Assembly (NCBI GenBank): GCA_045648665.1
Contig: JAZROL010000017.1
Coordinates: 4,616 to 68,615 of the forward strand
DNA length: 64,000 nt
Reading direction: 5' to 3'
Origin: Candidatus Enterousia sp.
Lineage (GTDB): Bacteria > Pseudomonadota > Alphaproteobacteria > Rs-D84
Shown here: positions 23,258-50,278 of the stretch, piece after piece
Position numbering within the stretch: the stretch's first letter is position 1
Layout: every line of letters begins with the position of its first letter
Translations under genes and position numbers: made by a program
Notes under the pieces: generated by a model
Databases searched by the model: none
What the model was told of the DNA's origin: nothing
What the model saw: only the letters and a program-made list of their open reading frames with translations

Positions 23258-25735
23258 TTACATTTGAACATCTTCACAAATCGGTTCACCCGCATTAACC
23301 TGACAATCAGATTCAGATCTGAAATATTTTGTCATATTTTTACATGATGTTGTCGTTGTAGTAGTGCAAATATGACATTTTCTTGTCGCTTTATCAAATG
23401 TTGCTCGGGTTTCTTTTGTATAACCACTATTCATAGATGTACGGCCACGATATTTAAATGTTTCAGCTCCTTCTTTAATCTTGCCATATCCACCTTGTAA
23501 TAATGATTTAGTGGTCAAACCCGTACCGACATCATAGGATATAGCAAAAGGTGTTGTTAATGGAGATTGTTCAGAAATAGAATTTAAATTAAACGAAGTA
23601 TTTCCCATATCTCCCAATTTTTGACACATAAACTGAGCTACTTCTGCCGAAGAATTATGCGCTGCCTCTTCTATTGCACTTGCTATTTTCTTGTTATAAT
23701 TATCTTGTGCCTTGCGCAATGCGGCCATACCTATCATTGTTCTGTATTGGTTCAATAAATTAGGAAAACGCGCAACCGTTTGATTTTCACCCCTTTTGTT
23801 TTCTTTACCGTTTATCTGTGATAAATCACGACCATTGATACAATATTGAATCCGCGTATCTGATTCAATCAAAGATATTGCATGATTGATAGTGCCAGAT
23901 ATATTCTTTAATTCCTCTTCTATGGATGAAATAATACCATCTGCGCCAGGGACAGTCTTGTTCTTTTTCTTAACTTCTGCTATATAATCTTCAACACCGA
24001 TTTCACCCGGTTTAAGAACCAATTTACCATCACGAACAGATCCTGCGGCATCACCCATTTTAATAGAACCAAAAGATATCATACCTGTGACACGATATAT
24101 TGTGCCATCTTTTTGCGAACGCACAGACCCTGTTCCCAGATACTCATCTGATGCAAATGAATTACAATCTGTGGTAGACCCGCACAGCTCGACCATTTTT
24201 TCTTCTGCTATTTTCTGGCAATTTTCCAATGCCTGATTATCAATATTCAAATACAACCCCATTAACATAGAATCCAAATCTGACATTTTGAAATCTGGAT
24301 TTGCTTGTTTACAAACAACCAATTTATCAATTGGGCAAATATCGTGAATATAATTGAAATCCATACCTATACAATTCATAAAGTCTGTGCCACATCTATC
24401 TTCTGATGTAAAACATTCTTTAACTTCTTGTGTACAAGCATCGACACGCATAGCAGCCAATTTACTTTCTACATAATCCCAAATTTGTGGTTCCATACGT
24501 TCACATGGATCAAGTTGCACTTTACAGAAAGAACGTGCCATAGTTGGGCGAGCCAAACACGCATCCATAGTCGCAACACCTTTCCCAACAATGTCATCTT
24601 TGCACGCTGTTTGAATACAATCTGAAATATCCTTCAAACAAGATTGTCTTTTCTTTGATTCTATATTTGATTCTGCTAAACGAATAGTTGGCGCCGCCTC
24701 GCGTAAAAAATCGTTCCAGATGTACCGACGATTTGCGACACATTTATCCAAAACATTTTCACAAATATAACGTTTTGCTTCCAATATTTCCATCGTTGAC
24801 GCAGTGATGTCATAAGTATCCGTAGTAATAACACTTGTGCCCGCAACGCTGTTTGACTTTTTATTTTGCATATTCTCGGATGCAATAGTGAATACGCATT
24901 GTTCCCAGTCTGGACCGCAAGCATCTTCACTGCGCATACATTTCTTATATTCAACCATACATGTTCCACGATCGTATTTATTGGCCTCGTCCAAACTTTC
25001 TTTTAACGCAGCACGCACACTGGCATTTGCAGAAGACAACATCGTTTTTGCTTCTTGTTTTTTCTGGTCTATGCTATTTGCCAAACCTTTACAATCTGAC
25101 ACAATTTGACGAGAATACATTTGGGTTAACAAACTCATATCTTCTGCACAAGAAGAATCCATTTGTTCAACACATAACTTATGTGCCGCATTATACAGAG
25201 CATTTCCTGTTTTATCAGAAATCAAATCCATCATATCATATTCTTCATCATCTTCGTCATAATCCGTATCATAAAAAGATGACCACATAGATTTTGCTGC
25301 TTCAGCTCTGTCTTTTGTTGCTTTTGTCGCTATGACTTCACCATTTTCATCGTATGTTCTGGTCCCTTGGAAAATAATATCAGCATTTGCACCGGCTTTT
25401 ACTTTTTCAACCTCTTCCGTACTTATACGTTCTGCTTCGGATAACATCTGTCGTATATCAGACAAAGCAGATTCATATTGTTTTATATCATCATTACAAT
25501 TACAAGAACCACCTAATTCGTTATCAACAATACAGAATTGATCCATACACCCAAAATATGATTCATAGCATTTTTTATCATAAACACCACTTGCATCAAC
25601 TTTTGTACGAACCTTTGTCCCAATTTGAATTGCAGATTGTTTTTTTGCTGTTTTTGTGGCGCAAAAACCATCACCAACGCCGACAAAAACAGCCAATCCA
25701 CAAACAAACAAACTAAATTTTAATAATTTTTTCAT
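23258..25735 (-). CDS. Cys-rich secreted protein, CMDxFC family paralog P1 (825 aa)
   Basis: Signal peptide MKKLLKFSLFVCGLAVFVG. Shares ordered Cys motifs with five other ORFs (CYESYFGCMDQFCIVDNELGGSCNC ...). 18 bp downstream of P2. Confidence 0.85.
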   Translation of the reverse strand: MKKLLKFSLFVCGLAVFVGVGDGFCATKTAKKQSAIQIGTKVRTKVDASGVYDKKCYESYFGCMDQFCIVDNELGGSCNCNDDIKQYESALSDIRQMLSEAERISTEEVEKVKAGANADIIFQGTRTYDENGEVIATKATKDRAEAAKSMWSSFYDTDYDEDDEEYDMMDLISDKTGNALYNAAHKLCVEQMDSSCAEDMSLLTQMYSRQIVSDCKGLANSIDQKKQEAKTMLSSANASVRAALKESLDEANKYDRGTCMVEYKKCMRSEDACGPDWEQCVFTIASENMQNKKSNSVAGTSVITTDTYDITASTMEILEAKRYICENVLDKCVANRRYIWNDFLREAAPTIRLAESNIESKKRQSCLKDISDCIQTACKDDIVGKGVATMDACLARPTMARSFCKVQLDPCERMEPQIWDYVESKLAAMRVDACTQEVKECFTSEDRCGTDFMNCIGMDFNYIHDICPIDKLVVCKQANPDFKMSDLDSMLMGLYLNIDNQALENCQKIAEEKMVELCGSTTDCNSFASDEYLGTGSVRSQKDGTIYRVTGMISFGSIKMGDAAGSVRDGKLVLKPGEIGVEDYIAEVKKKNKTVPGADGIISSIEEELKNISGTINHAISLIESDTRIQYCINGRDLSQINGKENKRGENQTVARFPNLLNQYRTMIGMAALRKAQDNYNKKIASAIEEAAHNSSAEVAQFMCQKLGDMGNTSFNLNSISEQSPLTTPFAISYDVGTGLTTKSLLQGGYGKIKEGAETFKYRGRTSMNSGYTKETRATFDKATRKCHICTTTTTTSCKNMTKYFRSESDCQVNAGEPICEDVQM

Positions 25736-25753
25736 ATTCGCCCTCTTCCACAA

Positions 25754-27946
25754 TTACATATTTATATCTTCACAGGATTCAATTTCTTGACAGAATTCTT
25801 TCTTTCCACCGGACGCAGCACCCAAAACCCCAGCACCGACAGCACCAACAATACCACCAATCGCGGTACCCCAACCGGCGTTTATCATCGTTCCCATTGA
25901 TGCCCCAGCAGACAAACCACCCGCCGCCGCTTTCAACGCAGCAGATGCTTTTGATTCACCACCTTCTTCGCAAACTTGTTGTAATCTGCAAACATGGCAA
26001 TTACGCGTTGCTTCTTCAAAAGACGAAGTATGAATATAACTATAATTTGATTTTGAATCTTTCGGCTGTTCAGGTTTATACGTCTTCAAACAAGTTTGTC
26101 TGGCAGTTTCAACATCTTTTTTACGTGTTAATTCAGCAATCTTTGAATCCAATTCACGTAAATTACGATTTTCTGCTGCCATTTTTGCCAATAACTTAGC
26201 AGTATTAAACACACTTGTTCCCAAAGGCTCTCTACCTTTTACTTTCTTTGATTCAACACTTTGTAAATCAGCACATTCTGCAACAGTTTTGTCTTTTTCA
26301 AATTGTTTGAAAAATTCTTCAACCGCATTATCAGAATTTTGAACAATCATTTTACGCAAAGCAGCAAAACCTTCTTCTGTATCCGGCAACCCGACCAATG
26401 AAGGAATAGTGTCATCTATCGGCAAACAAGCCATATCCGTTCCACAAACCTTTGATAATTCATCACTAAAATAATTTATACAACCCTGTAATATTTGATA
26501 ATCCATTTGTAAAAGCACAGATTGAACAATTATATCATATTGCATTGCACCCTTACAAGACGGAAACATAGATTGCGGACAAAGCGCAGCTATTTCATAA
26601 GGCTTTTTACCGACACATTCCGGTTTTGTAAAATCAACACCACATTTATCACGCAAGCATTTATCAATGTCATTTTCACAGAATTTAGTTTGCAAAAATC
26701 CTAACTTGTCATTAACAACCGTTTGCAACCCCGGAATCATAGCATCACATTCGGTAATTATAGGACAAATTCCCGCAGCAACATTAACATCAACTAAACA
26801 TTCGGCATTCGTTGCCGTGGAACAACTTTCTTCCAAACAATCCTGAATTTTTGCTAAACAGGTTGCACGCTTATACTTATCAGCATACTTTGCAGCCTCA
26901 TCCAAAATACTTTTTGATTCTTCTTTCCAATCCTTTTCGACATAATCGCGAACAGCTAAACATTGATCCAAAATATTTTCACATGCATTTGAACGACGTT
27001 TTAACAAACTTGCGTCTAAACAATTTTCAAAATTCGCACCACATCCACCCTTGTCAGCAACACAAGAACGATACGCCAACAAACATTCACCACGATTATA
27101 TTTATTCGTCGTATCTAACATTTCAAGACGCGCTTTACGCACAGCCGATTCGGCGATACGTTTATTAGATTCAGCGTTTGTTTTTTGATCTTTTAAATAC
27201 GCATCATAACTTTTACAATCTTGAACAACCATACGCGTATAAAGCATAGATTCCATTTCAGCCCTGCTACCACAAGCATCTAATTCTGGTTGACAATATT
27301 GCGATGCCATTTCAAGCAAAACATCACCAATATTATAATCTTCACCAACATCTTCATCTTCTTCCCCGTAATCACCAGTTAACCAAGCAAAGAAATTTGC
27401 ACCAGTCGTACTATTGTTCGCAGAATCATTTGTAAACACCAACCGTGCCTTCGCACCCATCTGTTCACGTTCAACACCTTCGCTGTATAATTTATCAGCT
27501 TCGGCCTGAATATCCAAAACCTCTTTAATTTTACTTTTTGCATAGTATATGCTGTCGGAACACGCACATCTTTCACCCTGACTTTCATCCAACAAGCAAA
27601 AATCATCCATACACTTACGATAAGCTTCACGACATTCTTCATGTGAAATAGCAGGCGTTTCAGCGACAGATTCCGTCACCTTTTCAGTTTCAGTGCTAAT
27701 AATGACGGTACTTCCAGAACGTTGCGAATCCTTTACTGCGTTTACAGTCGCAGAATTAACATTTCCAGCCTTCACATTCGGTGCCGAAACAGTTCCGACA
27801 TGAATTCCTGCACTGCCCAATGACAGTCGAGCCTCTGTTTGCGAAGCACGCCCCGCACCAGAACGAACATTACCTGCATCGCGATCCGCAGCAAATGCAA
27901 CAACCGGAAAAACTGCAAAAAGCAGCCAAAATTTACTCATTTTCAT
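25754..27946 (-). CDS. Cys-rich secreted protein, CMDxFC family paralog P2 (730 aa) with C-terminal glycine zipper
   Basis: Signal peptide, CREAYRKCMDDFCLLDESQGERCAC, Gly/Ala zipper GGLSAGASMGTMINAGWGTAIGGIVGAVGAGVLGAASGG, terminal Cys module. Start at ATG 27946 (AGGA upstream). Confidence 0.85.
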   Translation of the reverse strand: MKMSKFWLLFAVFPVVAFAADRDAGNVRSGAGRASQTEARLSLGSAGIHVGTVSAPNVKAGNVNSATVNAVKDSQRSGSTVIISTETEKVTESVAETPAISHEECREAYRKCMDDFCLLDESQGERCACSDSIYYAKSKIKEVLDIQAEADKLYSEGVEREQMGAKARLVFTNDSANNSTTGANFFAWLTGDYGEEDEDVGEDYNIGDVLLEMASQYCQPELDACGSRAEMESMLYTRMVVQDCKSYDAYLKDQKTNAESNKRIAESAVRKARLEMLDTTNKYNRGECLLAYRSCVADKGGCGANFENCLDASLLKRRSNACENILDQCLAVRDYVEKDWKEESKSILDEAAKYADKYKRATCLAKIQDCLEESCSTATNAECLVDVNVAAGICPIITECDAMIPGLQTVVNDKLGFLQTKFCENDIDKCLRDKCGVDFTKPECVGKKPYEIAALCPQSMFPSCKGAMQYDIIVQSVLLQMDYQILQGCINYFSDELSKVCGTDMACLPIDDTIPSLVGLPDTEEGFAALRKMIVQNSDNAVEEFFKQFEKDKTVAECADLQSVESKKVKGREPLGTSVFNTAKLLAKMAAENRNLRELDSKIAELTRKKDVETARQTCLKTYKPEQPKDSKSNYSYIHTSSFEEATRNCHVCRLQQVCEEGGESKASAALKAAAGGLSAGASMGTMINAGWGTAIGGIVGAVGAGVLGAASGGKKEFCQEIESCEDINM

Positions 27947-28445: not shown

Positions 28446-30743
28446 ATGCGAAAAATACTTGTATTTTTTGTTGGTTTGTTTTTATGCATTGATGTTGTCA
28501 ATGCTGCTGGGCGTGGACAAAACATAAATCCAAGAAATGATGCAAAAAATGTCTCGGTTCGCCAAACAACAAATACAAGAAGCACAAATTCAAATCGCGC
28601 AACAACCGCAAGAACATCAATAAACACGAACACCCGAAAGAACGAAAAATCGAAACAAATTTTATCTCGCACACCACAAACACGAAAATCAGTATCTGCA
28701 CGTTCTGCAAATACAACAACATCTTCTGGAAACATAAAAGTTTCACGTGTTGCATCAAACCAGACAAAAACATTTGGTACAAATTACAATTCTTGTCGCG
28801 ATTCATATTTTACATGCATGGATCAGTTTTGTGCGGCACAAAATGAAACTTATAGACGTTGCGTTTGTTCTTCACGATTGACCGAGATAAAAAACAAAGA
28901 AGCAAAAATATCCCAAACTGGGGACAACCTGAAAGATTTTCAAAATTTAAATTTAGAAGTTATAAATAAAACTGCTGGTGAAGTAAAAGCAATGGTTTCT
29001 GCATCCGAAGGCGAAAGCGCTATGAAAAAAGATAAATCCGCCAGTGCAAAAACTTTGAATAGTATATCCGATGTTTTAAACAACACAAAAAAACAAGCCC
29101 TTTCAACCCAAGGACAACTTGACATTGCCGGCGACATCAAAGCGATTTGGTCAACGACAGATTTAATTGGCGGTGCCGATATTGCAAATTTAACCGGCGA
29201 AGCATTATATAACGCAGTTCATGCACAATGTGCAGAATTGGTTGCACAAAATTGTGAAACATCTGATTTGAATATGGTTGCATCTGCATATGGAATGTAT
29301 ATAGAAAATGATTGTTCCACATTAGCCAATAACCTGGACAAGAAAAAAACAGAAGCAAATGCCGCTATTCGTTCAACCAGGCATCAAATGCAAGATGCAA
29401 GACTTGAAAATTATGATGCACACAACTCTTTGTCCATAAATGATTGTGTTGCAAGGGTACGCCAAGATTTAACAACAGAAACCGCTTGTGGCGCTGATTA
29501 TATTCACTGTTTAGACATGACTGGTAAATATATAAATTCAACAACAGGCAAACCAATATATTCCACTGAATTTTATCAAATAGAAAATCAAATTTCATTA
29601 TCTGGCGATGTTTTAACTAACAATAAAAATGCAAATTTCATAGTTGCACTAAATCAAAAACGTGCTTTTGCTGAAAAAACATTGGATTTATGTCGCGATA
29701 ATGCCGACGAAGTTTGGGATGAATACATGCGTCAGGCCATTATCGAAATATATCAAAAACAACAAGAACGTGTAAGAATTGTTAAATCAGAATGTTTACG
29801 TGTTGTCAATGATTGTTATTTAGATAAATCAAACCAATTAAAATCTTTTTCTGATACCACAAACGAAATAACTTTGGGGCAAACATTAGAAACCGCAGAA
29901 GACATGTGTGCAGATAAATTAAATACTTGCAGTAATTTATATGGCGGTGGCTCAGAAGGTTTCGCAAAACTTGTTGATACAATGTCTGAAATAACAGACG
30001 TCACCATCGCACAAACATGTCCAGATTTATTAAATAAATATGTGCAAAGTATCTGTTCTGTATCAGTTAATGATTCAATTCATACTTATCCTTATGGCTG
30101 TCGTACTTATGCCCCGGGCGAAGCACGCTATGCAAACACAGAAATATGCAACACAACTTTAACCAATCCTTTTAGTAAATCTGACATTTTTGTTTCAACA
30201 AATATCAGTGTTTATGACGATTATTATGTTTGTAAAAATACCACAAAAAGATATATACGCTGTGAATTTAATTACTATTTGTATGACGACCAAGGCGAAT
30301 GCAACGAAACCAACAACTTTTGTTTCAGTAAAAATAATGCAACCGAATGCCGTATATGTCCATCTGGACATTTATGCACAGGCGGAACCAGTGAACCAAA
30401 AGGAATAAATTCAGATATATATAGTTCGTGCGGAGTATATTATATAGGCAGTTTGTATCAACAACTTGTTCGTTACGCATTGCAAAATTGTGTACGACCT
30501 TCACGAAGTTCATATATATTACCAGAAAATATTTTGGCAGATGTTGATACCGTTATGAAACAAGTCCAGTCATCTTTGGTATCTGAATTAAGTAAAGAAT
30601 GTGAACGCTATAACGGGAAATGGTATGACTTACCATGGATTGATGACGATATGGATGGTTATCACGATGAAAATGATGATACGCTGAACGAAGAATTTTA
30701 TGATCAAACACGAACAAATAAACTTTGGGGATATTGCAAATAA
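28446..30743 (+). CDS. Cys-rich secreted protein, CMDxFC family paralog P3 (765 aa, most divergent)
   Basis: Signal peptide MRKILVFFVGLFLCIDVVNA, CRDSYFTCMDQFCAAQNETYRRCVC, GEALYNAVHAQC...NDCSTLANNLDKKK. Confidence 0.85.
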   Translation: MRKILVFFVGLFLCIDVVNAAGRGQNINPRNDAKNVSVRQTTNTRSTNSNRATTARTSINTNTRKNEKSKQILSRTPQTRKSVSARSANTTTSSGNIKVSRVASNQTKTFGTNYNSCRDSYFTCMDQFCAAQNETYRRCVCSSRLTEIKNKEAKISQTGDNLKDFQNLNLEVINKTAGEVKAMVSASEGESAMKKDKSASAKTLNSISDVLNNTKKQALSTQGQLDIAGDIKAIWSTTDLIGGADIANLTGEALYNAVHAQCAELVAQNCETSDLNMVASAYGMYIENDCSTLANNLDKKKTEANAAIRSTRHQMQDARLENYDAHNSLSINDCVARVRQDLTTETACGADYIHCLDMTGKYINSTTGKPIYSTEFYQIENQISLSGDVLTNNKNANFIVALNQKRAFAEKTLDLCRDNADEVWDEYMRQAIIEIYQKQQERVRIVKSECLRVVNDCYLDKSNQLKSFSDTTNEITLGQTLETAEDMCADKLNTCSNLYGGGSEGFAKLVDTMSEITDVTIAQTCPDLLNKYVQSICSVSVNDSIHTYPYGCRTYAPGEARYANTEICNTTLTNPFSKSDIFVSTNISVYDDYYVCKNTTKRYIRCEFNYYLYDDQGECNETNNFCFSKNNATECRICPSGHLCTGGTSEPKGINSDIYSSCGVYYIGSLYQQLVRYALQNCVRPSRSSYILPENILADVDTVMKQVQSSLVSELSKECERYNGKWYDLPWIDDDMDGYHDENDDTLNEEFYDQTRTNKLWGYCK

Positions 30744-40267: not shown

Positions 40268-40406
40268 GATTTTTCCCTCGTATTCTTATGCGCATATTAT
40301 ACCATACAACCGTGTATAAAAAAAGTTTTTTTTGATAAAAATAACCCCACACAAAACACTTTTATTATAATATTGACAAATCATATAAATTGTCTATAAT
40401 TGTAAT

Positions 40407-41336: not shown

Positions 41337-42103
41337 AATTCCCACCACACGGTTCGGGCGCCGCCGCCCGAGCCGCTTGTGTAAATCTGGCCGCAGTTTC
41401 CGCCTTTGCCAAAGCCCCCGTCTGGCAAAATTTGATTACAAAGATTGTTATAGCCGTAGTTGTTGCGGCAGTCATTGTTGTTGCATGTCTTTTCACCGCG
41501 GGGGCTGCAGGTGCAGGCCCATTAGCCAAATTCATGGCTACACATGGTGCAACTTTTGCGATAATGAAGGAAAAATTAGCGGCAGCAGCGCTAAAGTCAG
41601 CTATTGCTGGAGCAGCAAAAACTGAAGCAAAAGTAGCAATAGCTGCAGCGGCATCTGGGAAGGGAAGTATCAATGACGCCACGATGGCTATCGGCGCTTC
41701 TATTAAGGCAACGTCAGCCGCTACTAAGGCTACTGCAGAAGCCGCTGCCGCTACCGCTGCGACTGTGGGTACCGTTGCAGCCAGTACAATAGGAATGGCA
41801 GGTGCCGTTGCTGGTGTTATGGCTGACGGTATTTCAACAGGTATAACAAATGCAAATAATAATGCTGAAATCAGCGCACAAAAAGCAAGTACTAATGAAA
41901 ATCATGGGGAGTTTTTTACCAACGAATGGAACTATAAAGAAAAAATCACGACAGATTTTGATGATAAAACTAATATTTGTAAGCGTTGTATTTCAACCAA
42001 GAAATGTGAAGAAACAAAGTGGTCTATTTTTTCGGATAGAACGTGCAAAAAATGGAAAAGCGAAGAATTTTCTGAACCCCGTTGCAGTGAGATACAGTTT
42101 TAA
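41318..42103 (+). other. start-less alternative C-terminal cassette of P4 (no ATG or SD visible; open frame from 41318)
   Basis: The in-frame translation begins ...AAARAACVNLAAVSAFAKAPVWQ (identical to P4), then a divergent TM/Ala-rich region, and ends NHGEFFTNEWNYKEKITTDFDDKTNICKRCISTKKCEETKWSIFSDRTCKKWKSEEFSEPRCSEIQF. The P4 end is THGEFFANEWNYREKITTDFDNDTGICKKCVSKMTCEKTKWHIFSDRTCSKWASEDFEDERCTEIQF. Only a TTG at 41432 is available as a start, and no SD is visible. Confidence 0.8.
41360..41428 (+). repeat. left arm of perfect 69-bp inverted repeat
   Basis: Base-for-base reverse complement of 42557-42625 by manual alignment. GC-rich relative to its surroundings. Confidence 0.9.
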
Positions 42104-42112
42104 ATTATTAAA

Positions 42113-44755
42113 TTAAAATTGGATTTCGGTGCATCTTTCGTCCTCAAAATCTTCAGATGCCCATTTACTGCAAGTTCTGTCACTAAATATATGCCACTTT
42201 GTTTTTTCACAGGTCATTTTTGAAACACATTTTTTACAAATACCCGTATCATTATCAAAATCAGTTGTTATCTTTTCACGATAATTCCATTCATTAGCAA
42301 AGAATTCACCATGAGTTTCAGTAACTTTATCCTTATGCGTAGATATAAAAGCTTTGTCATCCTCTCTTTCATTAGAAGCTAACCCTTCATCTATACCTAC
42401 CGCAATGGCTCCTATCGCAGTTGCACCAAAAAAAACAAGACCTATAATACCGGCAACAAAATGAAAAGTATTAGTCCACGCACCAGCAGTAAATACCGTT
42501 GCAACAATCGCCGCCCCAATAACAACTATACCGACAATAATTTGTGCCCATAATGATTGCCAGACGGGGGCTTTGGCAAAGGCGGAAACTGCGGCCAGAT
42601 TTACACAAGCGGCTCGGGCGGCGGCTCTCTTTGCATCTTCACCATTTAACTTTAAATTATTAGCAACTCGTTCATTTACTATCGCTAAATCCATTTGCAT
42701 TTGTTCGCTGTATATATCATACAATTGATAATAATTTTCTTTTGCTTTTAATAATGCGGCATTTGCCAAACTTACACGAATAGTATTTGATAATTTTGGA
42801 AAACGAACTTTGTTATTTTTAAATTGATCTGTTACACCTGGAACCTCGCGACCATTTATGCAATATTGCACAAAATAATCAGATTCCACAGACGATATCA
42901 TTGAATTAATTCCAGATTGCAAATGTTGCAATTCATCCATGACACGTGCTTTTTCTTCTTCTGGGATATAACTGTCTTTGTTTTCTTCCAATGCGGTCAT
43001 ATACGCATCAATATCGATTTTACCGTCGTCGGTTACTTGAATACTTTCCCATTTTATAATGCCGCTGATAACACCCGCAAATGGGGCAACATAACCCAAT
43101 TCTTCACTTTGTGCATTTTGCAAACGCCCCAGCTCATAATCGGAAATATCATTAACGCTGCTGCGACAATTAAACCATTTGAACCCGGCGGTTGAATCTG
43201 GCGAATCCGTAGAATATTCACACACCTGATAACGCAAGGATTGCGCACCTATCTTTTGTCCCAACGCCTGAACCGCGCAATCTTCAACACTGCCACAGGT
43301 TTTACTAACTGAATTTTCCACAGCCAATTCGCAAGTCTGCAACATATCATTATCGATATTCAAAATTATACCCTGGACAATTTGCGCGATATTATCGTAA
43401 ATTTCATCGCCCTGCACTTTTTCGTTACCATATACTTTTTGACAACCGACCAATTTATCATAAGGGCACATACGCATAATTATATTCGTATCCAAACCAA
43501 CACACTGAGAATAATCCGGGCCACATCTGTCCACGCTTTGCATACATTCTTTTAATTCCGCAGTACAAGAATCAACACGCATAGCCGACAATTTAGACAA
43601 CACTGATGGCCACAGCGTTGATAATTGCGGAACCTCGTAACTGCCACCTGTTGCAGCCAAACAAGGTTCCAATTCAACTTTGCACATAGACTTTATTGTT
43701 TCAGGACGTGTCAAACACATATCATACGAATCGTTTCCATCTATGTTGTCTTTGCACGCTTTCACAAAACAATTGGAAATATTTTCCAAACAAGATGTCC
43801 TGATATTCGATTCGGCTTTTGATTCGGCTAACTTTATTTGTGGCGCAGATATTTTTAAGAAAGAATCCCAAACATTATCACGCACAGAAACACATTTGCT
43901 CAAAACCGATTCGCACATTATTTTTTTGCTTTCCAACATATCCATTGTTGATTTAGCAATTATTACCGACGAATTTTCCCCCTGTATTGCAACTGTATTT
44001 GTCACACCAGCATAAATACTTTCTTTTGCAACAGTATCAACACATCCTGTGAAATCAGCACCACATTCCGCGGTAGTTTGCATACATTGTGAAAATTCAT
44101 TTACGCATTGTCCCAGATCATATTTGTTTGACGATTGATATTGTTCCAGCGCGGCTTTGCGAACAGTCGTTTTTGCAGCGGCAGCACGTTGCGAACTTTT
44201 ATTTTTTTCAATCTTCAAAGCATTTTCATACGCATTACAATCAGATTTAACTTTTTGTGCATAAATATTTTTCAACAGCGTAAGTTGCGATTTACATTCT
44301 GGAATTTTTTCAATACAGATATCATGCATTTTTGCACGTAATCTGTCGCCCTGTTCCGAATCGGTGACGGATAAATCAACATCTTCTTCATCTTGATCTG
44401 CGGTAATATCATCATATAGTTGTTGTCCCAATTCACCAAGTTTAATTATTTCGACACTGTTTTCAGTTATTAATTGTGTTTGTGCTTCGGATTTTTTTAT
44501 TTGATTAAATTCAGCATTTAATTCTTTGATTCGATTACTGCATTGGCAACGGCCACCCGAATCGTTATCCAACATACATCCCATATCCATACATGCGGTA
44601 TATTTGTCCTGACAAGAATTTGATGTTGCAGTCGATTCAGAAACTTTTGTTCCACGATTTATAACCGATTGACTGGGGCCACGCGTTGCAGAATAAGTCG
44701 GCATCGCGCAACAAACAAAAAACAGAACTGATAAAAATCTTGTTATCGATTTCAT
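42113..44755 (-). CDS. Cys-rich secreted protein, CMDxFC family paralog P4 (880 aa) with TM hairpin and C-terminal Cys module
   Basis: Signal peptide, CQDKYTACMDMGCMLDNDSGGRCQCSNR and all downstream family motifs. Two hydrophobic segments, then the NEWNY...CTEIQF module. Confidence 0.88.
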   Translation of the reverse strand: MKSITRFLSVLFFVCCAMPTYSATRGPSQSVINRGTKVSESTATSNSCQDKYTACMDMGCMLDNDSGGRCQCSNRIKELNAEFNQIKKSEAQTQLITENSVEIIKLGELGQQLYDDITADQDEEDVDLSVTDSEQGDRLRAKMHDICIEKIPECKSQLTLLKNIYAQKVKSDCNAYENALKIEKNKSSQRAAAAKTTVRKAALEQYQSSNKYDLGQCVNEFSQCMQTTAECGADFTGCVDTVAKESIYAGVTNTVAIQGENSSVIIAKSTMDMLESKKIMCESVLSKCVSVRDNVWDSFLKISAPQIKLAESKAESNIRTSCLENISNCFVKACKDNIDGNDSYDMCLTRPETIKSMCKVELEPCLAATGGSYEVPQLSTLWPSVLSKLSAMRVDSCTAELKECMQSVDRCGPDYSQCVGLDTNIIMRMCPYDKLVGCQKVYGNEKVQGDEIYDNIAQIVQGIILNIDNDMLQTCELAVENSVSKTCGSVEDCAVQALGQKIGAQSLRYQVCEYSTDSPDSTAGFKWFNCRSSVNDISDYELGRLQNAQSEELGYVAPFAGVISGIIKWESIQVTDDGKIDIDAYMTALEENKDSYIPEEEKARVMDELQHLQSGINSMISSVESDYFVQYCINGREVPGVTDQFKNNKVRFPKLSNTIRVSLANAALLKAKENYYQLYDIYSEQMQMDLAIVNERVANNLKLNGEDAKRAAARAACVNLAAVSAFAKAPVWQSLWAQIIVGIVVIGAAIVATVFTAGAWTNTFHFVAGIIGLVFFGATAIGAIAVGIDEGLASNEREDDKAFISTHKDKVTETHGEFFANEWNYREKITTDFDNDTGICKKCVSKMTCEKTKWHIFSDRTCSKWASEDFEDERCTEIQF
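42557..42625 (-). repeat. right arm of perfect 69-bp inverted repeat (inside P4)
   Basis: Reverse complement of 41360-41428. Confidence 0.9.
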
Positions 44756-44764: not shown

Positions 44765-47296
44765 CTAGTATTCAATTTCCTTACATTCTTCTTTTTCATC
44801 ACCCCATTCTTTGCACCATTTGTGTTTAGGTGTATCACATTCCTGCGTTCTTACACACTTAGTACAAACCACTCTGTTTATATCAAACTGCGTAGTCACA
44901 GAACGTTTATAATTCCACGCACTGTGTTGTGAATAACCAACCAACTTTTCGTCACGTCCAGACTTTCTATTTATCTTCCAGTTATTGTTCAATTCTTTAA
45001 TATCTCTGACATCGTCATTTTCACCCAACGCCATACATTTTTCACGTGCAATATCTTCTTTTTTGCGTTGTTCATTTTCTTTATTTACTTTTGCATAACG
45101 CGCAGCCAACGAACTGTTATCATTCACAGAATCTTCATAAACCGTATTATATTTTCTGTAATAATTTCTTTGCACAGACCTTAACGCAGAATTTATAATT
45201 TTTGCACGCGCCATTTGTGTTAAATTAGGAAACTTTGGATTGTCTTTTTTTCCTATAACTTGTTCAAAACCCGAATCGTAAGTCAAACCAGAAACCTGAC
45301 GCCCCGTCATACAAAATTGAATACGAGGATCGGCTTCTATTTCTGCGATTGCGTTTTTAATAGATGTTCCCAACACACCTATTTCGGTTTTAATATTATC
45401 AGCTTCTTTTTTATCAATATCTATCATCACATCCTTGACTTTGTCCATATATTCATCGGCACTGATTATCCCGGACATATCTTCCAACATTTCTACGTTT
45501 TGCCACAATATTTGACCATAAATTATTGACGTAAAAATATGTTTATCATGTTTAGTCAAAGATAAATCAGAATTACGGGATGTCTTTCCTAATTCAATAT
45601 CAGTAATCGCGGATAAATCTTGTTTACAGTTCACATATTTGTGTTCACCATCCGCAGTTTCACAATATTTTATTCCTAATGACCGAGTTCCTAAATCATT
45701 ATCGACTATTAAACCATCGCAATTATTAACATCACCGCACACACGCAACATAGCATCATCAACAGCCTTTTGACAAGCATCAGCCAAACCTTTTTCAACG
45801 GACAACATAACACCCTGGGCAACACGCGCCAAAGTTTCCCGCACATTATAAACTTTACCTTTATAATCACCATAACACGCGGTCAGTTTATCTTCTGGAC
45901 ACATATCGACAACATCTTCATTATCCAACCCGATACATTTTGAATAATCTTCGCCACATCTGTCATCGTCTTGCATACATTGTTTAAATTCTTTGGTACA
46001 TGCATCTGCACGTTCTTTTGCTAATTCCGCCAAGATACCTTTCCAAATACGCGATTTTTCAGGTTTATCATAACTGCCACCCGTTGCCGACAAACAAGGT
46101 TCCAATTCAATTTTACAAAAAGATTTATAATTTTCTGGTTGCGTCAAACACATATCATAAGAACCATCAGGATCTTTCGGATCCATATTTTCACGACATG
46201 CCTTTAAATAACATTCTGCAACAGTAGAAAGACAATTTTCACGCAAACCCGATTCGGCTTTTAATTCCGCAGACTTTATATCGAACGCAGCATCTTGTAA
46301 AAATGAATTCCACACATTATCTTTGACCGATTCGCATTTATCCAAAATATTTTCACACAAAATTTTCTTTGCCGACAAAGAATCCATAGTCGACCCGGAC
46401 AGATTAATGTCCATGCTGCCAACCGTTATAATTTGTGATTCTGCTTTTGCAGCACCTACATTTTCATACGCAGACAAAGTCACACATCCGGTAAAATCAT
46501 TTCCACAACCACCGGTCGTTTTCATACACTGTTTAAATTCCAAAGCACATTTTCCCAAACCATACGAATTAGAATCTTTGAATTGCGCCAACGCAGCATC
46601 ACGAACATTTTTTTGCGCATTATCCAGCTGCACAGTGGCTTCTGATTTTTGCAATTTAATTGCATTTTCAAATCCAATACAATCAGATTTAATTTTTTGC
46701 GCATACAACAATTGCACCATTTCTTTTGACGATGCGCATTTCTTAGGTGTTTGTTCCCAACACATAGAATCAGCAACATTATAAAGTTCATCGCCTTTTT
46801 TATTAGAGATATCATCTTCTAAAACAAAATCATCTTCTTCGTCATCTTCATTGGACGAAAACATATTATTCCAATCACTAAATGATAAAGACTTTTTGTC
46901 CTGTTTATCTTTTTTCTTTAAAACATCTTCGGACATTTTTACAACATCATCGGTTGCTTTGCCTAAATTTACATAATCGGCACCATTTTCAGCAATCAAA
47001 GCCGCCTTATTTTGCATATCCATAATTTCGTTCAGTTGTGTGTATAAACTGTTATATTTATTACTGCATTGGCAACGACCACCAGAAACATTTTCATCCA
47101 TACAAAGCGCATCCATACAACCGAAATACGAATCCTGGCATTCTGTATCAACCGCGGTATTTTCAGCTGCAGAATTGACCTTGGTCCCGGTATTAACAAC
47201 CTTTTGTTTAACCGCAGAACGCGAAACCACCGCACCAAAAGACGAACCCGGCACAACATATAAACATAACAAAAACACTGCGAACAATTTACGCAT
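44765..47296 (-). CDS. Cys-rich secreted protein, CMDxFC family paralog P5 (843 aa)
   Basis: Start at MRKLFAVFLLCLYVVPGSSFG (GGAGAG RBS). CQDSYFGCMDALCMDENVSGGRCQCSNK. 9 bp upstream of P4. Confidence 0.88.
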   Translation of the reverse strand: MRKLFAVFLLCLYVVPGSSFGAVVSRSAVKQKVVNTGTKVNSAAENTAVDTECQDSYFGCMDALCMDENVSGGRCQCSNKYNSLYTQLNEIMDMQNKAALIAENGADYVNLGKATDDVVKMSEDVLKKKDKQDKKSLSFSDWNNMFSSNEDDEEDDFVLEDDISNKKGDELYNVADSMCWEQTPKKCASSKEMVQLLYAQKIKSDCIGFENAIKLQKSEATVQLDNAQKNVRDAALAQFKDSNSYGLGKCALEFKQCMKTTGGCGNDFTGCVTLSAYENVGAAKAESQIITVGSMDINLSGSTMDSLSAKKILCENILDKCESVKDNVWNSFLQDAAFDIKSAELKAESGLRENCLSTVAECYLKACRENMDPKDPDGSYDMCLTQPENYKSFCKIELEPCLSATGGSYDKPEKSRIWKGILAELAKERADACTKEFKQCMQDDDRCGEDYSKCIGLDNEDVVDMCPEDKLTACYGDYKGKVYNVRETLARVAQGVMLSVEKGLADACQKAVDDAMLRVCGDVNNCDGLIVDNDLGTRSLGIKYCETADGEHKYVNCKQDLSAITDIELGKTSRNSDLSLTKHDKHIFTSIIYGQILWQNVEMLEDMSGIISADEYMDKVKDVMIDIDKKEADNIKTEIGVLGTSIKNAIAEIEADPRIQFCMTGRQVSGLTYDSGFEQVIGKKDNPKFPNLTQMARAKIINSALRSVQRNYYRKYNTVYEDSVNDNSSLAARYAKVNKENEQRKKEDIAREKCMALGENDDVRDIKELNNNWKINRKSGRDEKLVGYSQHSAWNYKRSVTTQFDINRVVCTKCVRTQECDTPKHKWCKEWGDEKEECKEIEY

Positions 47297-47429: not shown

Positions 47430-47434
47430 TTTTT

Positions 47435-50278
47435 TTAATGAACGCTGACACTTCTAGCCACATCTATCAGGAAGTCCGCACTGTTACCTATCGTCTTCGC
47501 TGCATCTTTTAGGGATTTCTCACTGTTACCTAATAAATCACGTTCACGATTGTATTTAGGCATAGCAACAGTACGGCTGCCATCTTCTACACCTTTTTCA
47601 TCCCAATGCCAACAGCACCCAGTAAGCATATAATCACAAACATGTTTTTTTCTGGTAATCGTACAGGTATATGTTGCAGGATCATACGCAGCAGTTGAAA
47701 ACCAATGCGCAGAGTCTCTCGCGGATCCCACACAACCCGTGCGGAAAAATCCTGTACCTTGTGTAGATGAAAACCCATCAATATCATTGTTTGCTATAGC
47801 AAGCTTCTCACAATAGTCTTTATTTAGTTCATGTTTTTTCTCTGCAACCACACCCTCTATTGATGCTAAACGTTCTGCGACTTTGGCGTAAAGAGCTTCA
47901 ATCTCTGCATCTTTTGCTCTTTCTGCTTTGATATATTGTTCACGCATAACACCCAAAGTTTTTGAAACTAATATATTAGTATACTGTTCCAACAATTCTG
48001 GATATCTTGTACCTCTTGAATCAATATCGTCTCCGTCCGCACCAATATCATACGAGTTTTTTCCACCCCTTGTTGCACTTATACCTTGAATTTTTTTCCC
48101 GTTAAGACATGCACTTACTGTCGCGTCAGATTTCAATATAGCAATCTTTGTGTTTAAAAGATTTGTAAGACCATCTCTTATAGATTCAACACCTGAATCA
48201 TCCGCCTCTGCAAATCCAGCATTTGCTGGGTTGTTTGTCGAAGAGTATTCAAACTTACCCTTATTATACATTACATTGTTAACATTTATACGATTTAACA
48301 AACGAGGTCTGACATTACCCGCTATTATATCCGCTGCTTTAAATGCGTCCGCGGAATTATAACAATTTCCATCTGTTTCGTCTTCTCCATCCAGGCATAA
48401 TTTAACATCCAACAAACCATCAAATGATATATTTCCTAAATCAAGACCTTCACATGTTTCTTCGTCACCACACAACTTAATCATTGCGGTTTTAGCAGCT
48501 TTTTGACATGTTTCCGCTAATTTAGAATCTATCTTTAATGCGTAACCCTGGGCAACCTGGGCTATATATTCACGAACATCTTGATTTTGGCCACCGGCAC
48601 CACGCCCATAACGGTCTTGACATGCCGTCAATTTTTCTTCGGCACACAAATCGACAATCGTATCTGTTGATAAACCAACACACATAGCATAATCTTCGCC
48701 ACAAATGCCTTCTATGCACTGCGTCACTTCTTTTGTACATGCATCAACACGCAAAGCCGACAACATAGCGGTAACACCCTGCCATAATCTGGATTTTTTA
48801 AATCCAGCATCAGATGTTGATTGCCCACCGGTTGCAACTATACATGGATCTAACTTTACTTTACAAGAATCGCGTAATAACCAAGGATCCGCCAAACACA
48901 TATCATAATTTTTCGCGTCGCTGTTTGGGTCAAAACTGGTTGCACAACGTTCTTTGAAACAAGTTGCTACTTCGGAAATACAATTTTTACGCAAATCATC
49001 TTCTGCATTCAATTCCGCACTTTTTAATGCAGGCGCCGCATCACGCAAGAACAAATCCCAAATAGTATCTTTGTATTTCACACAATGTGATAAAACATCA
49101 TCGTCACAATAAACCTTCTTTGCGTTTAATTGATTCATTGTTGACCCGGCCAAAACAATATCAACAACCCCAGAAATAGTTCTGGCTTTCTCAGATTGCT
49201 TTGCTTTTCTTGATGTTTTAGCATTTGATGCATCCGCAGCAGTTTGGATATTTTCTTCGGCCGAAAACTGTACACATCCCGAATAATCCGCACCGCATCC
49301 GGCTGTAGTTTGCATACACTGTGTATATCGGGTTAAACATTGCCCCTGGTTATATTTATTTGCATCCTGAAATTGTTCAAGCGCAGCATCACGCAATGCT
49401 TTTTCCGCGGTTTGTAATTTTTGTGCACTGGCATTTTTTTGCTGCTTCAAACTGTTTTCATACGCAGTACAATCAGATTTAATTTTTTGCTTATATATCA
49501 ATTGCAACATAGATGCTGATTCCTGACATTGTTCCGGGATTTGTGCAGCACACATTTTAGAAGCACTAGCATGTAACGCATCGCCTTTTTTATCTAAAAC
49601 CACAGAACTAGCCACATCAAAAATATCTTCTTCATCATCTTCGAACATAGCATCGTTATTCCATAAATCCAAATTCAATGTTCTGGATGTTTTCCCGTTT
49701 TCTGCCTCGGCAGTTTTACTATTGACAACGGCATCCGCTGCCGCTTTTGCGCGCGCCATAATCTCGTCCGCATTTTCACCCATTTTCAAACGTTCGACAC
49801 CTTCGGTTGCCATAGCATAACTTTGTTCATCCAATTTCATAATCTCTTCTAGAATAGAATCAAATTCAGCATTTTTATTACTGCATTGGCAACGACCACC
49901 CGACGTGTTATCCAACATACAGAAAGAATCCATACATCCAAAATAAGCATCCTGGCATTCCTGATCAACAACAGTATTTGTTGTCGCAGACTGCACTTTT
50001 GTCCCAGCATTGATTACCTTTTGTTTAGTCCCAGCACGCGCAGCAATCGGTCTTGTCGCGGCACGCGCAGTCGCAGGTGCAATCCCAGATGTATTTTTTA
50101 CACCGACATTACGTGCAGCACGTGCAGTTTGCGCTTTCGGTGCAGCCGCTTCCTTTTGTTCAACAGATTGTTCCTGTGAAACAAGGCCACGCGCACTTCT
50201 GCGTTGTGTCGCAGCAAACGCCCCAAAATCAGCCAAAACCAATGAAACAAACAATGGCAAAATTAATAATTTGCGCAT
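47435..50278 (-). CDS. Cys-rich secreted protein, CMDxFC family paralog P6 (947 aa)
   Basis: AAGGAG RBS, signal peptide MRKLLILPLFVSLVLADFGAFA, CQDAYFGCMDSFCMLDNTSGGRCQCSNK and the downstream family motifs. Confidence 0.88.
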   Translation of the reverse strand: MRKLLILPLFVSLVLADFGAFAATQRRSARGLVSQEQSVEQKEAAAPKAQTARAARNVGVKNTSGIAPATARAATRPIAARAGTKQKVINAGTKVQSATTNTVVDQECQDAYFGCMDSFCMLDNTSGGRCQCSNKNAEFDSILEEIMKLDEQSYAMATEGVERLKMGENADEIMARAKAAADAVVNSKTAEAENGKTSRTLNLDLWNNDAMFEDDEEDIFDVASSVVLDKKGDALHASASKMCAAQIPEQCQESASMLQLIYKQKIKSDCTAYENSLKQQKNASAQKLQTAEKALRDAALEQFQDANKYNQGQCLTRYTQCMQTTAGCGADYSGCVQFSAEENIQTAADASNAKTSRKAKQSEKARTISGVVDIVLAGSTMNQLNAKKVYCDDDVLSHCVKYKDTIWDLFLRDAAPALKSAELNAEDDLRKNCISEVATCFKERCATSFDPNSDAKNYDMCLADPWLLRDSCKVKLDPCIVATGGQSTSDAGFKKSRLWQGVTAMLSALRVDACTKEVTQCIEGICGEDYAMCVGLSTDTIVDLCAEEKLTACQDRYGRGAGGQNQDVREYIAQVAQGYALKIDSKLAETCQKAAKTAMIKLCGDEETCEGLDLGNISFDGLLDVKLCLDGEDETDGNCYNSADAFKAADIIAGNVRPRLLNRINVNNVMYNKGKFEYSSTNNPANAGFAEADDSGVESIRDGLTNLLNTKIAILKSDATVSACLNGKKIQGISATRGGKNSYDIGADGDDIDSRGTRYPELLEQYTNILVSKTLGVMREQYIKAERAKDAEIEALYAKVAERLASIEGVVAEKKHELNKDYCEKLAIANNDIDGFSSTQGTGFFRTGCVGSARDSAHWFSTAAYDPATYTCTITRKKHVCDYMLTGCCWHWDEKGVEDGSRTVAMPKYNRERDLLGNSEKSLKDAAKTIGNSADFLIDVARSVSVH

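What the first reader, a model, noticed from the sequence alone, without database searches (positions are those of the whole stretch)
23258..50278. Six-member paralogous family of large Cys-rich secreted proteins (CMDxFC family) that I cannot place in a known family
Six ORFs each start with a signal-peptide-like N-terminus: 23258-25735, 25754-27946, 28446-30743, 42113-44755, 44765-47296 and 47435-50278. They share the same ordered series of cysteine-spaced motifs, aligned by eye.
1. C[QRY][DE]xYxxCMDxFCxxDxxxGxRCxC. Examples: CQDAYFGCMDSFCMLDNTSGGRCQCSNK, CQDSYFGCMDALCMDENVSGGRCQCSNK, CQDKYTACMDMGCMLDNDSGGRCQCSNR, CYESYFGCMDQFCIVDNELGGSCNCNDD, CREAYRKCMDDFCLLDESQGERCACSDS, CRDSYFTCMDQFCAAQNETYRRCVCSSR.
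2. A coiled-coil-like stretch, then an acidic D/E run.
3. GDALY..A...C......C.......Y.QKIKSDC..YEN.
4. NKY..G.C...Y..CM.....CG.D[FY]..C.
5. K..CE..L..C...[RK]D..W..FL..AAP.I..AE......R..CL..I..C...AC.
6. YDMCL..P......CK[VI].L[DE]PC.
7. A.RVD.CT.E.KEC....DRCG.DY..C[IV]G[LM]D....D.CP.DKL..C.
Together they occupy about 15 kb. With the other Cys-rich ORFs, roughly one third of the window encodes disulfide-rich exported proteins. They form tandem sets: P2-P1 are 18 bp apart and P5-P4 are 9 bp apart. The motif set does not match any named domain I recognise.
Basis: seen in the sequence. Interest (0 to 1): 0.85.

Follow-up and report, generated by a model that had tools for sequence, protein, structure and literature searches.

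The report
New cysteine-rich envelope protein family
Six related genes in this window encode large exported proteins with 36-38 strictly conserved cysteines; the family occurs only in an uncultured group of small-genome gut bacteria, matches no known protein family or structure, and probably builds a disulfide-braced structure in the cell envelope.

Summary
The six ORFs exist at the stated coordinates, carry signal-peptide-like N-termini and align over their length (20-34% identity, about 20 invariant Cys).

The family is real and lineage-restricted. A profile search found 1040 clusters among 1.84 billion representatives. All 79 genomic loci recovered are gut, rumen or termite MAGs of uncultured Alphaproteobacteria (Candidatus Enterousia, order Rs-D84, genomes under about 1 Mb).

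Each paralogue has its own orthologue across about 70 species. The P3/P2/P1 trio stays together while its flanks shuffle, and P6-P5-P4 forms a second conserved cluster.

Pfam, NCBIfam, PADLOC, PHROGs, PDB sequences and Foldseek (PDB, BFVD) give no significant match. AlphaFold predicts long helices plus a small C-terminal beta domain.

All mature cysteines are at least 96% conserved. Cx6C is the dominant spacing, and His is scarce. There is no CxxCH and no Tat motif, so disulfides are the likely role.

The classes are stably specialised. P2 and P4 have glycine-zipper or hydrophobic tails. P1, P2, P4 and P5 end in C-x-[DE]-[IV]-x-[MFY]; P3 and P6 do not.

Best reading: a Sec-exported, disulfide-stapled, heteromeric envelope or surface assembly. 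The function is inferred, not shown.

The parts
23258..25735 (-). P1: 825-aa family member. It has a signal peptide, 36 mature Cys and no hydrophobic tail, and ends ...CEDVQM.
   Evidence: ORF. All mature Cys are at least 96% conserved in 67 orthologues. 64 of 67 orthologues end in M.
25754..27946 (-). P2: 730-aa member lying 18 bp upstream of P1 in the same operon. A glycine-zipper tail sits before the terminal ...CEDINM.
   Evidence: GxxxGxxxG is present in 67 of 67 orthologues. All 36 Cys are at least 99% conserved.
28446..30743 (+). P3: 765-aa divergent member transcribed away from P2-P1. It has a long basic S/T/N-rich linker, lacks motifs 6-7 and the C-terminal module, and has 29 conserved Cys (an odd number).
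   Evidence: The arrangement P3(-) P2(+) P1(+) occurs in 53 loci.
42113..44755 (-). P4: 880-aa member with two hydrophobic helices (residues 731-789) before the C-terminal Cys beta module; it ends ...CTEIQF.
44765..47296 (-). P5: 843-aa member with 38 mature Cys. This is the paralogue modelled with AlphaFold.
   Evidence: Model m50296585c6d8: pLDDT 76, long helices plus a C-terminal six-strand beta domain.
47435..50278 (-). P6: 947-aa member and first gene of the P6-P5-P4 cluster, just downstream of rplQ. It has an A/R/Q-rich linker and no terminal C-x-[DE]-[IV]-x-[MFY] motif.
46484..46549 (-). First copy of the C-x6-C-x6-C-x6-C module in P5 (residues 250-271).
   Evidence: hhalign of sub-alignments: probability 97.9%, E 4e-13 against residues 433-454.
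45935..46000 (-). Second copy of the C-x6-C-x6-C-x6-C module in P5 (residues 433-454).
44768..44989 (-). C-terminal Cys-containing beta module of P5 (residues 770-843), ending ...CKEIEY.
   Evidence: AF2 strands 776-842 with pLDDT about 90. A module HMM hits 120 family ORFs and four stand-alone small ORFs.
41432..42103 (+). sCT: 223-aa small protein made of an N-terminal TM helix, an Ala/Gly-rich region and the family's C-terminal module. It is an inverted partial copy of the P4 3' end and lies tail-to-tail with P4.
   Evidence: Family HMM positions 793-871, E 1.8e-11. Sequence. Inverted repeat. Also present in L049 and L051.
41893..42323 (.). Inverted repeat centred on 42108 (215-nt arms, 70% complementary) formed by the 3' ends of sCT and P4. 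A second pair of arms lies at 41360-41464 and 42521-42625 (85%).
   Evidence: Within-genome similarity exceeds between-species similarity.
38159..40267 (-). C7: 702-aa exported Cys-rich protein with two glycine-zipper segments. It is not homologous to the family but is syntenic with it.
   Evidence: hhalign against the family gives probability 0.2%. It is adjacent to P4 in L049, L051, L052 and L056, and to P3/P2/P1 in L031 and L040. It has 765 lineage-restricted homologues.
40407..41336 (+). U309: 309-aa membrane protein of unknown family, conserved between C7 and sCT/P4.
23232..23253 (-). Terminator-like hairpin with a T-run immediately after the P1 stop. It closes the P2-P1 unit before the OMP gene.

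Best explanation
The six genes are ancient, functionally specialised paralogues of a protein family confined to the uncultured gut alphaproteobacterial order Rs-D84 (Candidatus Enterousia and relatives).

Proposed mechanism:
1. Each protein is exported by the Sec pathway through a cleavable signal peptide.
2. It folds outside the cytoplasm into an elongated, mostly alpha-helical body.
3. Its helices are stapled by about 18-19 intramolecular disulfides. Cx6C spacing puts cysteines one heptad apart on the same helix face.
4. Most members end in a small Cys-containing beta domain.
5. The six products, probably with sCT and C7, assemble into a fixed heteromeric structure in the cell envelope or on the surface. 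P2 and P4 (and sCT, C7) would provide glycine-zipper or hydrophobic membrane anchors. P1 and P5 would be soluble subunits carrying the C-terminal module. P3 and P6 would be subunits without it.
6. Its likely role is a protease- and stress-resistant envelope scaffold or contact layer for a metabolically dependent bacterium living in the gut.

Shown here: paralogy, lineage restriction, conserved clusters, Cys conservation, absence of known homologues.
Inferred: export, disulfides, helical architecture.
Speculative: heteromeric assembly and its role.
For: Paralogy and shared Cys spacing.

Lineage restriction: 1040 clusters in 1.84e9 representatives, 489 at E<=1e-30. All 79 genomic loci are Enterousia, Alphaproteobacteria or 'Rickettsiales' MAGs from rumen, gut and termite, apart from three with uninformative or probably mis-binned labels: two titled only 'bacterium' and one 'uncultured Muribaculaceae'. 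The lineage has genomes under about 1 Mb, no TCA cycle or respiration, and a suspected partner-dependent lifestyle (PMC12306168).

Conserved clusters: 1:1 orthologue classes. P3-P2-P1 is kept in 53+ loci while the flanks differ, and P6-P5-P4(-sCT-U309-C7) recurs.

Export: signal peptides in all six and in 209 of 246 relatives, with no lipobox and no twin-arginine.

Disulfides: every mature Cys of P1 and P2 is at least 96% conserved across 67 species, and counts are even at 36/36/38/38/38. There are 8-11 Cx6C per protein in the five closest paralogues (5 in P3), 0-1 CxxC, no CxxCH, and His at 0.5-0.9%.

Architecture: AF2 model with pLDDT 76, helices up to about 65 residues and a C-terminal six-strand domain at pLDDT about 90.

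Stable specialisation of tails and end motifs by class.

Codon usage is like that of neighbouring core genes, with no sign of foreign origin. An OMP ending ...RFEF lies next door, so the cell is diderm.
Against: - No experimental or expression data exist.
- A disulfide-forming system (DsbA/DsbB/VKOR) could not be looked for, because only 20-kb loci were reachable. The organism is an anaerobe without a respiratory chain, where such systems are often missing.
- P3 has an odd number of conserved Cys.
- pTM is only 0.48, so the overall shape is uncertain.
- Heteromer formation rests on synteny and class specialisation alone.
- The final location (periplasm, outer membrane or surface) is unknown.
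- AlphaFold DB and ESM Atlas were not searchable, so a structural relative among cellular proteins is not excluded.
Confidence: 0.5

Rival explanations
1. Variable surface antigens: a contingency family used for antigenic or phase variation, in the manner of Giardia VSPs, trypanosome VSGs or chlamydial Pmps.
For: The proteins are Cys-rich, exported and multi-copy in a gut-associated organism. They evolve faster than housekeeping genes (about 40-58% against 75-93% identity). Inverted-repeat recombination is visible at the P4/sCT tails.
Against: The complement is fixed at six classes with 1:1 orthologues across about 70 species and conserved gene order. Copy number does not expand. No simple-sequence tracts were noted at the gene starts. 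Divergence is similar to that of Pgk or the OMP. All Cys and many other positions are invariant.
Confidence: 0.08
2. Membrane-active effectors or pore formers. The glycine-zipper segments of P2, P4, sCT and C7 would insert into a partner or host membrane to extract metabolites or kill competitors, with the helical bodies as delivery scaffolds.
For: GxxxGxxxG is present in 67 of 67 P2 orthologues. P4, sCT and C7 have hydrophobic hairpins. The lineage lacks standard transporters and is thought to be partner-dependent. Long helices with Cx6C loops and a C-terminal anchor loosely recall class I fusion proteins (my own reading; the Cx6C motif surfaced in the search).
Against: No secretion system, immunity gene or toxin domain lies nearby. 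The glycine zippers sit next to the protein's own C-terminal module, as expected for self-anchoring. Four of the six classes have no hydrophobic segment.
Confidence: 0.12
3. Head-to-tail polymer or appendage. The conserved N-terminal strand-like motif [VI][IV]N.GTK[VI] of one subunit would dock into the C-terminal beta domain of the next, building an anchored fibre. Bases would be P2, P4 and sCT, middle units P1 and P5, and tip P6.
For: The motif lies at a fixed 16-17 residues before the first Cys in the P1, P4, P5 and P6 classes but not in P2 or P3. It is disordered in the monomer model, with pLDDT below 50. The C-terminal module occurs in P1, P2, P4, P5 and as the stand-alone anchored sCT. 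The donor-only and acceptor-only pattern is what a polar chain would need.
Against: No multimer prediction or covariation test was possible. There is no usher, chaperone or sortase-like gene nearby. The motif could equally be a processing or recognition site.
Confidence: 0.1
4. Metal- or cofactor-binding periplasmic proteins (Zn, Fe-S, haem or metal storage), with cysteines as ligands rather than disulfides.
For: There are 36-38 conserved Cys in an anaerobe, where extracytoplasmic disulfides are less expected. An acidic run could bind cations.
Against: There is no CxxCH, 0-1 CxxC per protein, His at only 0.5-0.9%, no twin-arginine signal for export of folded cofactor proteins, even Cys counts, and Cys spread singly along helices at heptad spacing rather than in clusters of four. 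A window-specific extra pair in P3 (C619/C626) was gained as a pair.
Confidence: 0.07
5. Artefact: low-complexity or chance similarity, or non-coding ORFs.
For: None beyond the low-complexity N-terminal linkers.
Against: Full-length alignments, E-values down to 1e-277 to database relatives, and hundreds of orthologues with conserved length and Cys.
Confidence: 0.01

Closest known systems
Chlamydial cysteine-rich outer-membrane-complex proteins (OmcB/OmcA)
   Same: Sec-exported, Cys-rich envelope proteins of a small-genome, host-dependent diderm. Disulfides are thought to give the envelope mechanical strength. This is the nearest functional analogy.
   Different: There is no sequence match: no Pfam hit of any kind at E up to 1. 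The predicted fold is helical with Cx6C spacing (my knowledge: OmcB is thought to be beta-rich). Here six specialised paralogues of 730-950 aa exist, and peptidoglycan-remodelling genes are present nearby (Slt, M23). Intermolecular cross-linking is untested.
Helicobacter cysteine-rich proteins (Hcp, Sel1-like repeats)
   Same: Secreted bacterial helical proteins in which paired helices are bridged by disulfides.
   Different: No Sel1/TPR profile match. No regular 34-36-residue repeat. The proteins are much larger, with one duplicated 4-Cys module rather than tandem repeats.
Giardia VSP / high-cysteine membrane proteins and Ephrin_rec_like (GCC2_GCC3) repeat proteins
   Same: Cys-rich, C-terminally anchored coat proteins of gut-lumen organisms, thought to resist proteases. 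A true Ephrin_rec_like protein (52866-55358) is encoded in the same window.
   Different: VSP-type proteins are built from CXXC repeats. The six have 0-1 CxxC and are helical. There is no Pfam match and no sign of variation.
Twin-CX9C / CX3C (CHCH) helix-loop-helix proteins of the mitochondrial intermembrane space
   Same: Cysteines at fixed helical spacing staple antiparallel helices, with oxidative folding in the compartment equivalent to the periplasm.
   Different: The spacing is 6, not 9 or 3. The modules are embedded in 800-aa proteins. There is no sequence relation.
Glycine-zipper membrane segments (Gly-zipper_YMGG/Omp, Rickettsia 17-kDa antigen type)
   Same: P2, P4, sCT and C7 carry GxxxG-rich hydrophobic segments like these small envelope anchors. 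C7 has a faint PF13441 hit (E 0.011), and one C7 homologue carries PF13441.
   Different: This concerns only a 30-60-residue tail. The hits are below Pfam thresholds, and the large Cys-rich bodies have no counterpart.

Membership tests
Any Pfam-A / NCBIfam family | Profile match at or above the curated threshold | tested here: not met
   The best Pfam E-values are 0.0056-0.7, all below the gathering scores. NCBIfam gives none. Across 50 diverse members no family is hit by more than 3.
Any solved structure (PDB) or viral predicted structure (BFVD) | Significant sequence-profile or fold match | tested here: not met
   PDB profile searches: best E 0.11 (A1), and none at E<=1 (A4). Foldseek gives 0 matches at E<=1e-3 in PDB or BFVD for the P5 model. 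AlphaFold DB was not available.
Chlamydial OmcB-type cysteine-rich envelope proteins | Sequence membership (Chlam_OMP6-type profile) | tested here: not met
   No such Pfam hit at E up to 1.
Chlamydial OmcB-type cysteine-rich envelope proteins | Intermolecular disulfide cross-linking in the envelope | not testable with these tools
   Needs biochemistry. The only hint is the odd number (29) of conserved Cys in P3.
Giardia VSP / Ephrin_rec_like Cys-rich repeat proteins | Tandem CXXC-containing repeats and a PF07699/PF03302 match | tested here: not met
   0-1 CxxC per protein and no Pfam hit. The neighbour 52866-55358 does match PF07699 at 1.1e-13.
Sel1-like-repeat Hcp proteins | SLR/TPR-type repeat profile | tested here: not met
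   No SEL1/TPR hits.
Twin-CX9C (CHCH) proteins | Two CX9C motifs in a helix-loop-helix | tested here: not met
   The spacing is C-x6-C. The helix-loop-helix is only predicted.
c-type cytochromes / exported Fe-S proteins | CxxCH haem motif or a Tat (twin-arginine) signal with Cys clusters | tested here: not met
   0 CxxCH and no RR in the n-region.
Outer-membrane beta-barrel proteins (BAM substrates) | Beta-barrel body with a C-terminal aromatic beta-signal | tested here: not met
   The terminal residue is F/Y/M in four classes, but the body is predicted helical and the C-terminal domain has only six strands.
Glycine-zipper membrane anchors | GxxxGxxxG hydrophobic segment and a Pfam Gly-zipper match | tested here: inconclusive
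   The motif is present in 67 of 67 P2 orthologues. Pfam hits are only faint (PF10439 E 0.67 in P2; PF13441 E 0.011 in C7).
Anti-phage defence or phage protein families | PADLOC or PHROGs profile match | tested here: not met
   No hits for the six, C7 or sCT.

The most novel reading that the evidence does not exclude
The six paralogues, with sCT and C7, are the subunits of a previously unseen, disulfide-locked envelope appendage or contact apparatus. Membrane-anchored bases (P2, P4, sCT) would be extended by subunits that join head-to-tail, the N-terminal GTKV strand docking into the C-terminal beta domain. Through this structure a metabolically crippled alphaproteobacterium would attach to partner cells (bacteria or gut protists) and perhaps tap them.
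Probability: 0.12. Interest if true: 0.85.

Novelty: categorically new. Interest (0 to 1): 0.62.

Why it matters
Rs-D84/Enterousia bacteria are widespread in rumen, gut and termite microbiomes. They have genomes under 1 Mb and lack respiration, several glycolytic steps and standard transporters, and nobody knows how they live.

About 15 kb, roughly 1.5-2% of such a genome, is spent on six conserved, specialised paralogues of one exported family, and further kilobases on associated Cys-rich proteins. That level of investment in a streamlined genome marks a core feature of the lineage's envelope or of its interaction with partners.

The family also offers:
- an apparently new disulfide-stapled helical architecture;
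- a test case for how an anaerobe without a respiratory chain oxidises 36-38 cysteines per exported protein;
- ready-made lineage-specific markers and antigens for detecting, sorting or imaging these uncultured cells.

Tried and rejected
Searches that found nothing:
- Pfam, NCBIfam, PADLOC and PHROGs scans of the six proteins and neighbours, and of 50 diverse members.
- PDB sequence-profile searches.
- Foldseek of the P5 model against PDB and BFVD. The best hits were levivirus coat proteins for the C-terminal beta domain at E about 1.7, rejected as noise.

Tests on neighbouring genes:
- I tested whether C7 (38159-40267) is a distant family member. hhalign gave probability 0.2%, so it was rejected.
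- I then spent a homologue search, an AF2 job and a Foldseek run on C7, hoping its fold would reveal the system. The model had pLDDT 66 and gave no match.

Dead ends:
- I looked for Dsb-like thioredoxin-fold ORFs in the window and the 79 loci. Only spurious antisense ORFs turned up, so the question stays open.
- Cys co-loss analysis to infer disulfide partners was confounded by phylogeny, because most losses are P3-class-wide.
- Codon adaptation as an expression proxy was uninformative. The genes look like ordinary native genes.
- The OMP gene next to P1 was considered as a dedicated partner. Adjacency holds only in the 5 closest genomes and a terminator separates them, so it was rejected.
- One contig look-up to see whether short Logan contigs were transcripts was uninformative.
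- Literature searches for Enterousia and Rs-D84 found no description of these proteins.
Full report
**Observation.** The six ORFs exist as described: 23258-25735(-), 25754-27946(-), 28446-30743(+), 42113-44755(-), 44765-47296(-) and 47435-50278(-). I call them P1 to P6 in that order.
- Each begins with a basic n-region, a strongly hydrophobic h-region and small residues at a plausible cleavage site. None has a lipobox or a twin-arginine.
- MAFFT aligns them positionally at 20-34% identity to P1, with about 20 invariant cysteines and an invariant C..Y..CMD..C...C.C motif.
- Pairwise BLAST scores are far above chance. P1, P4, P5 and P6 form the closer group, and P2 and P3 are divergent.
- The Cys spacing series is shared by the paralogues: 6,4,9,1 / about 100 / 7,18,43 / 6,6,6 / about 43 / 6,33,6,4 / ... 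/ 6,6,6 / 11,7 / ... / 11,5.
- P3 lacks motif 6, most of motif 7 and the C-terminal module.
- The stated intergenic gaps (18 and 9 bp) and the total of about 15 kb are correct.

**Whose genes these are.** The window is ordinary chromosome. It carries PFOR, CtpA, an M23 peptidase, ClpXP, pgk, rnhB, Slt, nrdR, a CcrM-type methylase, and the rplQ-rpoA...secY ribosomal cluster. Codon usage of the six is like that of their neighbours.

A search with P5 returned 853 relatives. All are unnamed or 'hypothetical', and where a source names an organism it is 'Alphaproteobacteria bacterium' MAGs or Candidatus Enterousia. A profile of the six, run against 1.84 billion cluster representatives, found 1040 proteins at E<=1e-3 and 489 at E<=1e-30, mostly full-length.

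A scan of one genome per GTDB species returned 79 loci. All come from uncultured Alphaproteobacteria, Ca. Enterousia or 'Rickettsiales' MAGs of rumen, faeces and termite gut. The exceptions are three loci with uninformative or probably mis-binned titles: two 'bacterium' and one 'uncultured Muribaculaceae'. Enterousia belongs to order Rs-D84. Its genomes are mostly under 1 Mb, lack the TCA cycle, respiration, some glycolytic steps and standard transporters, and have been proposed to be partner-dependent (PMC12306168).

**Conservation pattern.** I classified every family ORF in the 79 loci against the six.
- Each paralogue has its own orthologue class.
- The arrangement P3(-) P2(+) P1(+) occurs in 53 loci unchanged, and with minor variants in most others.
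- The flanking genes differ between species (ClpX/ClpP, pgk/rnhB/Slt, rpoA/rplQ, and others), so the trio is held together beyond background synteny.
- P6-P5-P4 follows rplQ in several genomes. It is itself followed by a small convergent ORF (sCT), a membrane protein (U309) and a 702-aa Cys-rich protein (C7). C7 sits beside the other trio in L031 and L040.
- Median identity to the window is 38-58% for the family, against 75-93% for ClpXP, RpoA and SecY and about 60% for Pgk and the OMP.
- This is the signature of old, specialised subunits, not of a fast-turnover antigen family.

**Cysteines.**
- All 36 mature Cys of P1 and all 36 of P2 are at least 96% conserved in 67 orthologues each.
- All 38 mature Cys of P5 are at least 90% conserved in an 86-sequence alignment spanning the classes.
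- Mature counts are even (36, 36, 38, 38, 38), except for P3. P3 has 29 conserved Cys plus a window-specific pair, C619/C626, that was evidently gained together.
- Cx6C occurs 8-11 times per protein in the five closest paralogues (5 in P3). CxxC occurs 0-1 times and CxxCH never. His is 0.5-0.9%.
- Combined with Sec-type signals, this argues for structural disulfides rather than metal or cofactor sites.
- I could not check model coordinates or find a Dsb system in the DNA available, so disulfide bonding remains an inference.

**Architecture.** AlphaFold2 on P5 with 86 sequences gave mean pLDDT 76 and pTM 0.48. Along the sequence it predicts:
- a disordered linker after the signal peptide;
- a short Cys-rich helical head (motif 1);
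- a helical stretch, followed by a disordered acidic run;
- a series of long helices (up to about 65 residues) interrupted by the two 4-Cys modules and short beta hairpins;
- a high-confidence C-terminal half ending in a six-strand beta domain (residues 776-842) that holds five Cys.

Cys at i and i+7 lie on one helical face, which suits ladders of disulfides between neighbouring helices.

**Specialisation of the classes.**
- P2 and P4 carry hydrophobic or glycine-zipper segments just before the C-terminal module. GxxxGxxxG is present in 67 of 67 P2 orthologues, and the tail hydropathy median is 1.5-1.9 against 0.7-1.0 in the other classes.
- P1, P2, P4 and P5 end in C-x-[DE]-[IV]-x-[MFY]: 64 of 67 P1 and 60 of 67 P2 orthologues end in Met. 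No P3 or P6 protein does (0 of 71 and 0 of 74).
- A strand-like motif, [VI][IV]N.GTK[VI], lies exactly 16-17 residues before the first Cys in P1, P4, P5 and P6 but not in P2 or P3.
- The C-terminal module also occurs alone, behind a TM helix, in sCT (41432-42103) and its counterparts in L049, L051 and L059.

**Comparison with what is known.** AlphaFold DB was not available.

C7 is likewise lineage-restricted (765 relatives), unrelated to the family and without a fold match. The literature held on Enterousia and Rs-D84 does not mention these proteins.

The nearest analogies are functional only:
- chlamydial OmcB-type envelope proteins;
- Helicobacter disulfide-bridged helical Hcp proteins;
- Giardia VSP-type coats;
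- CHCH helix staples;
- glycine-zipper anchors.

Each fails its sequence or motif test (see the membership table).

**Interpretation.** I commit to the following, with about 50% confidence. These are Sec-exported, disulfide-stapled helical envelope proteins that assemble into a fixed heteromeric, membrane-anchored structure. It would serve as an envelope scaffold or contact layer in a gut-dwelling, metabolically dependent bacterium.

The rivals are listed with their tests: antigenic variation, a pore or effector role, a donor-strand-like fibre, and metal binding. The artefact explanation is excluded.

**Verdict.** At the level of family and fold nothing known matches, within the limits of the libraries on hand. 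Function is unproven, so interest is moderate to high (0.62) rather than very high.

Noticed in passing
window 41360-42625 (sCT 41432-42103 + and the 3' end of P4): sCT is an inverted partial copy of the P4 tail. The two genes converge with 9 bp between their stops and form a 215-nt inverted repeat plus an 85%-identical 105-nt outer pair. In three genomes the sCT tail is closer to its own neighbour P4 (56-77% identity) than to sCT of other species (42-49%). This implies gene conversion or inversion between the copies.
   Followed up: partly
window 52866-55358 (-): An 830-aa ORF with 9% Cys and four Ephrin_rec_like (GCC2_GCC3) repeats (Pfam 1.1e-13), a eukaryote-type domain. It sits inside the ribosomal-protein cluster between rpoA and secY. 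The secY-rpoA gap is only 1.55 kb in L055, 2.3 kb in L052 and 2.9 kb in L057, and none has a C8 relative, so it looks like a lineage-specific insertion.
   Followed up: partly
window 38159-40267 (-) and 40407-41336 (+): C7 (Cys-rich, two glycine-zipper segments, 20 conserved Cys) and the membrane protein U309 travel with the family clusters in other species. Both lack any known family. C7 has 765 lineage-restricted relatives and no fold match.
   Followed up: yes
window 545-1873 (-): Another exported Cys-rich protein (442 aa, 17 Cys) with a weak Listeria-Bacteroides repeat at its C-terminus (Pfam E 8.6e-06, just below threshold).
   Followed up: no
window 21711-22763 (-): A 350-aa protein with a signal peptide that ends ...LGLRFEF, typical of an outer-membrane beta-barrel. 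It indicates a diderm envelope. It lies next to P1 only in the closest genomes and is separated from P1 by a terminator hairpin (23232-23253).
   Followed up: partly
window 40373-40400 (+): A perfect sigma-70 consensus (TTGACA, 16 nt, TATAAT) lies 7 bp upstream of the U309 start, in the divergent C7/U309 intergenic region.
   Followed up: no
window 28446-30743 (P3): P3 orthologues have an odd number (29) of conserved cysteines, which may leave one free for an intermolecular bond. The window copy has an extra pair (C619, C626) found in only 1-6% of orthologues. The P3 C-terminal region contains a C.ICP.G..C.GG stretch reminiscent of furin/ephrin-type repeats, but without a Pfam hit.
   Followed up: partly
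window 1-64000: GC skew is negative almost throughout (cumulative -4.6) and most genes are on the minus strand, so the window probably lies within one replichore with the minus strand leading. Two tRNA genes lie at 77-164 (+) and 11244-11314 (-).
   Followed up: no
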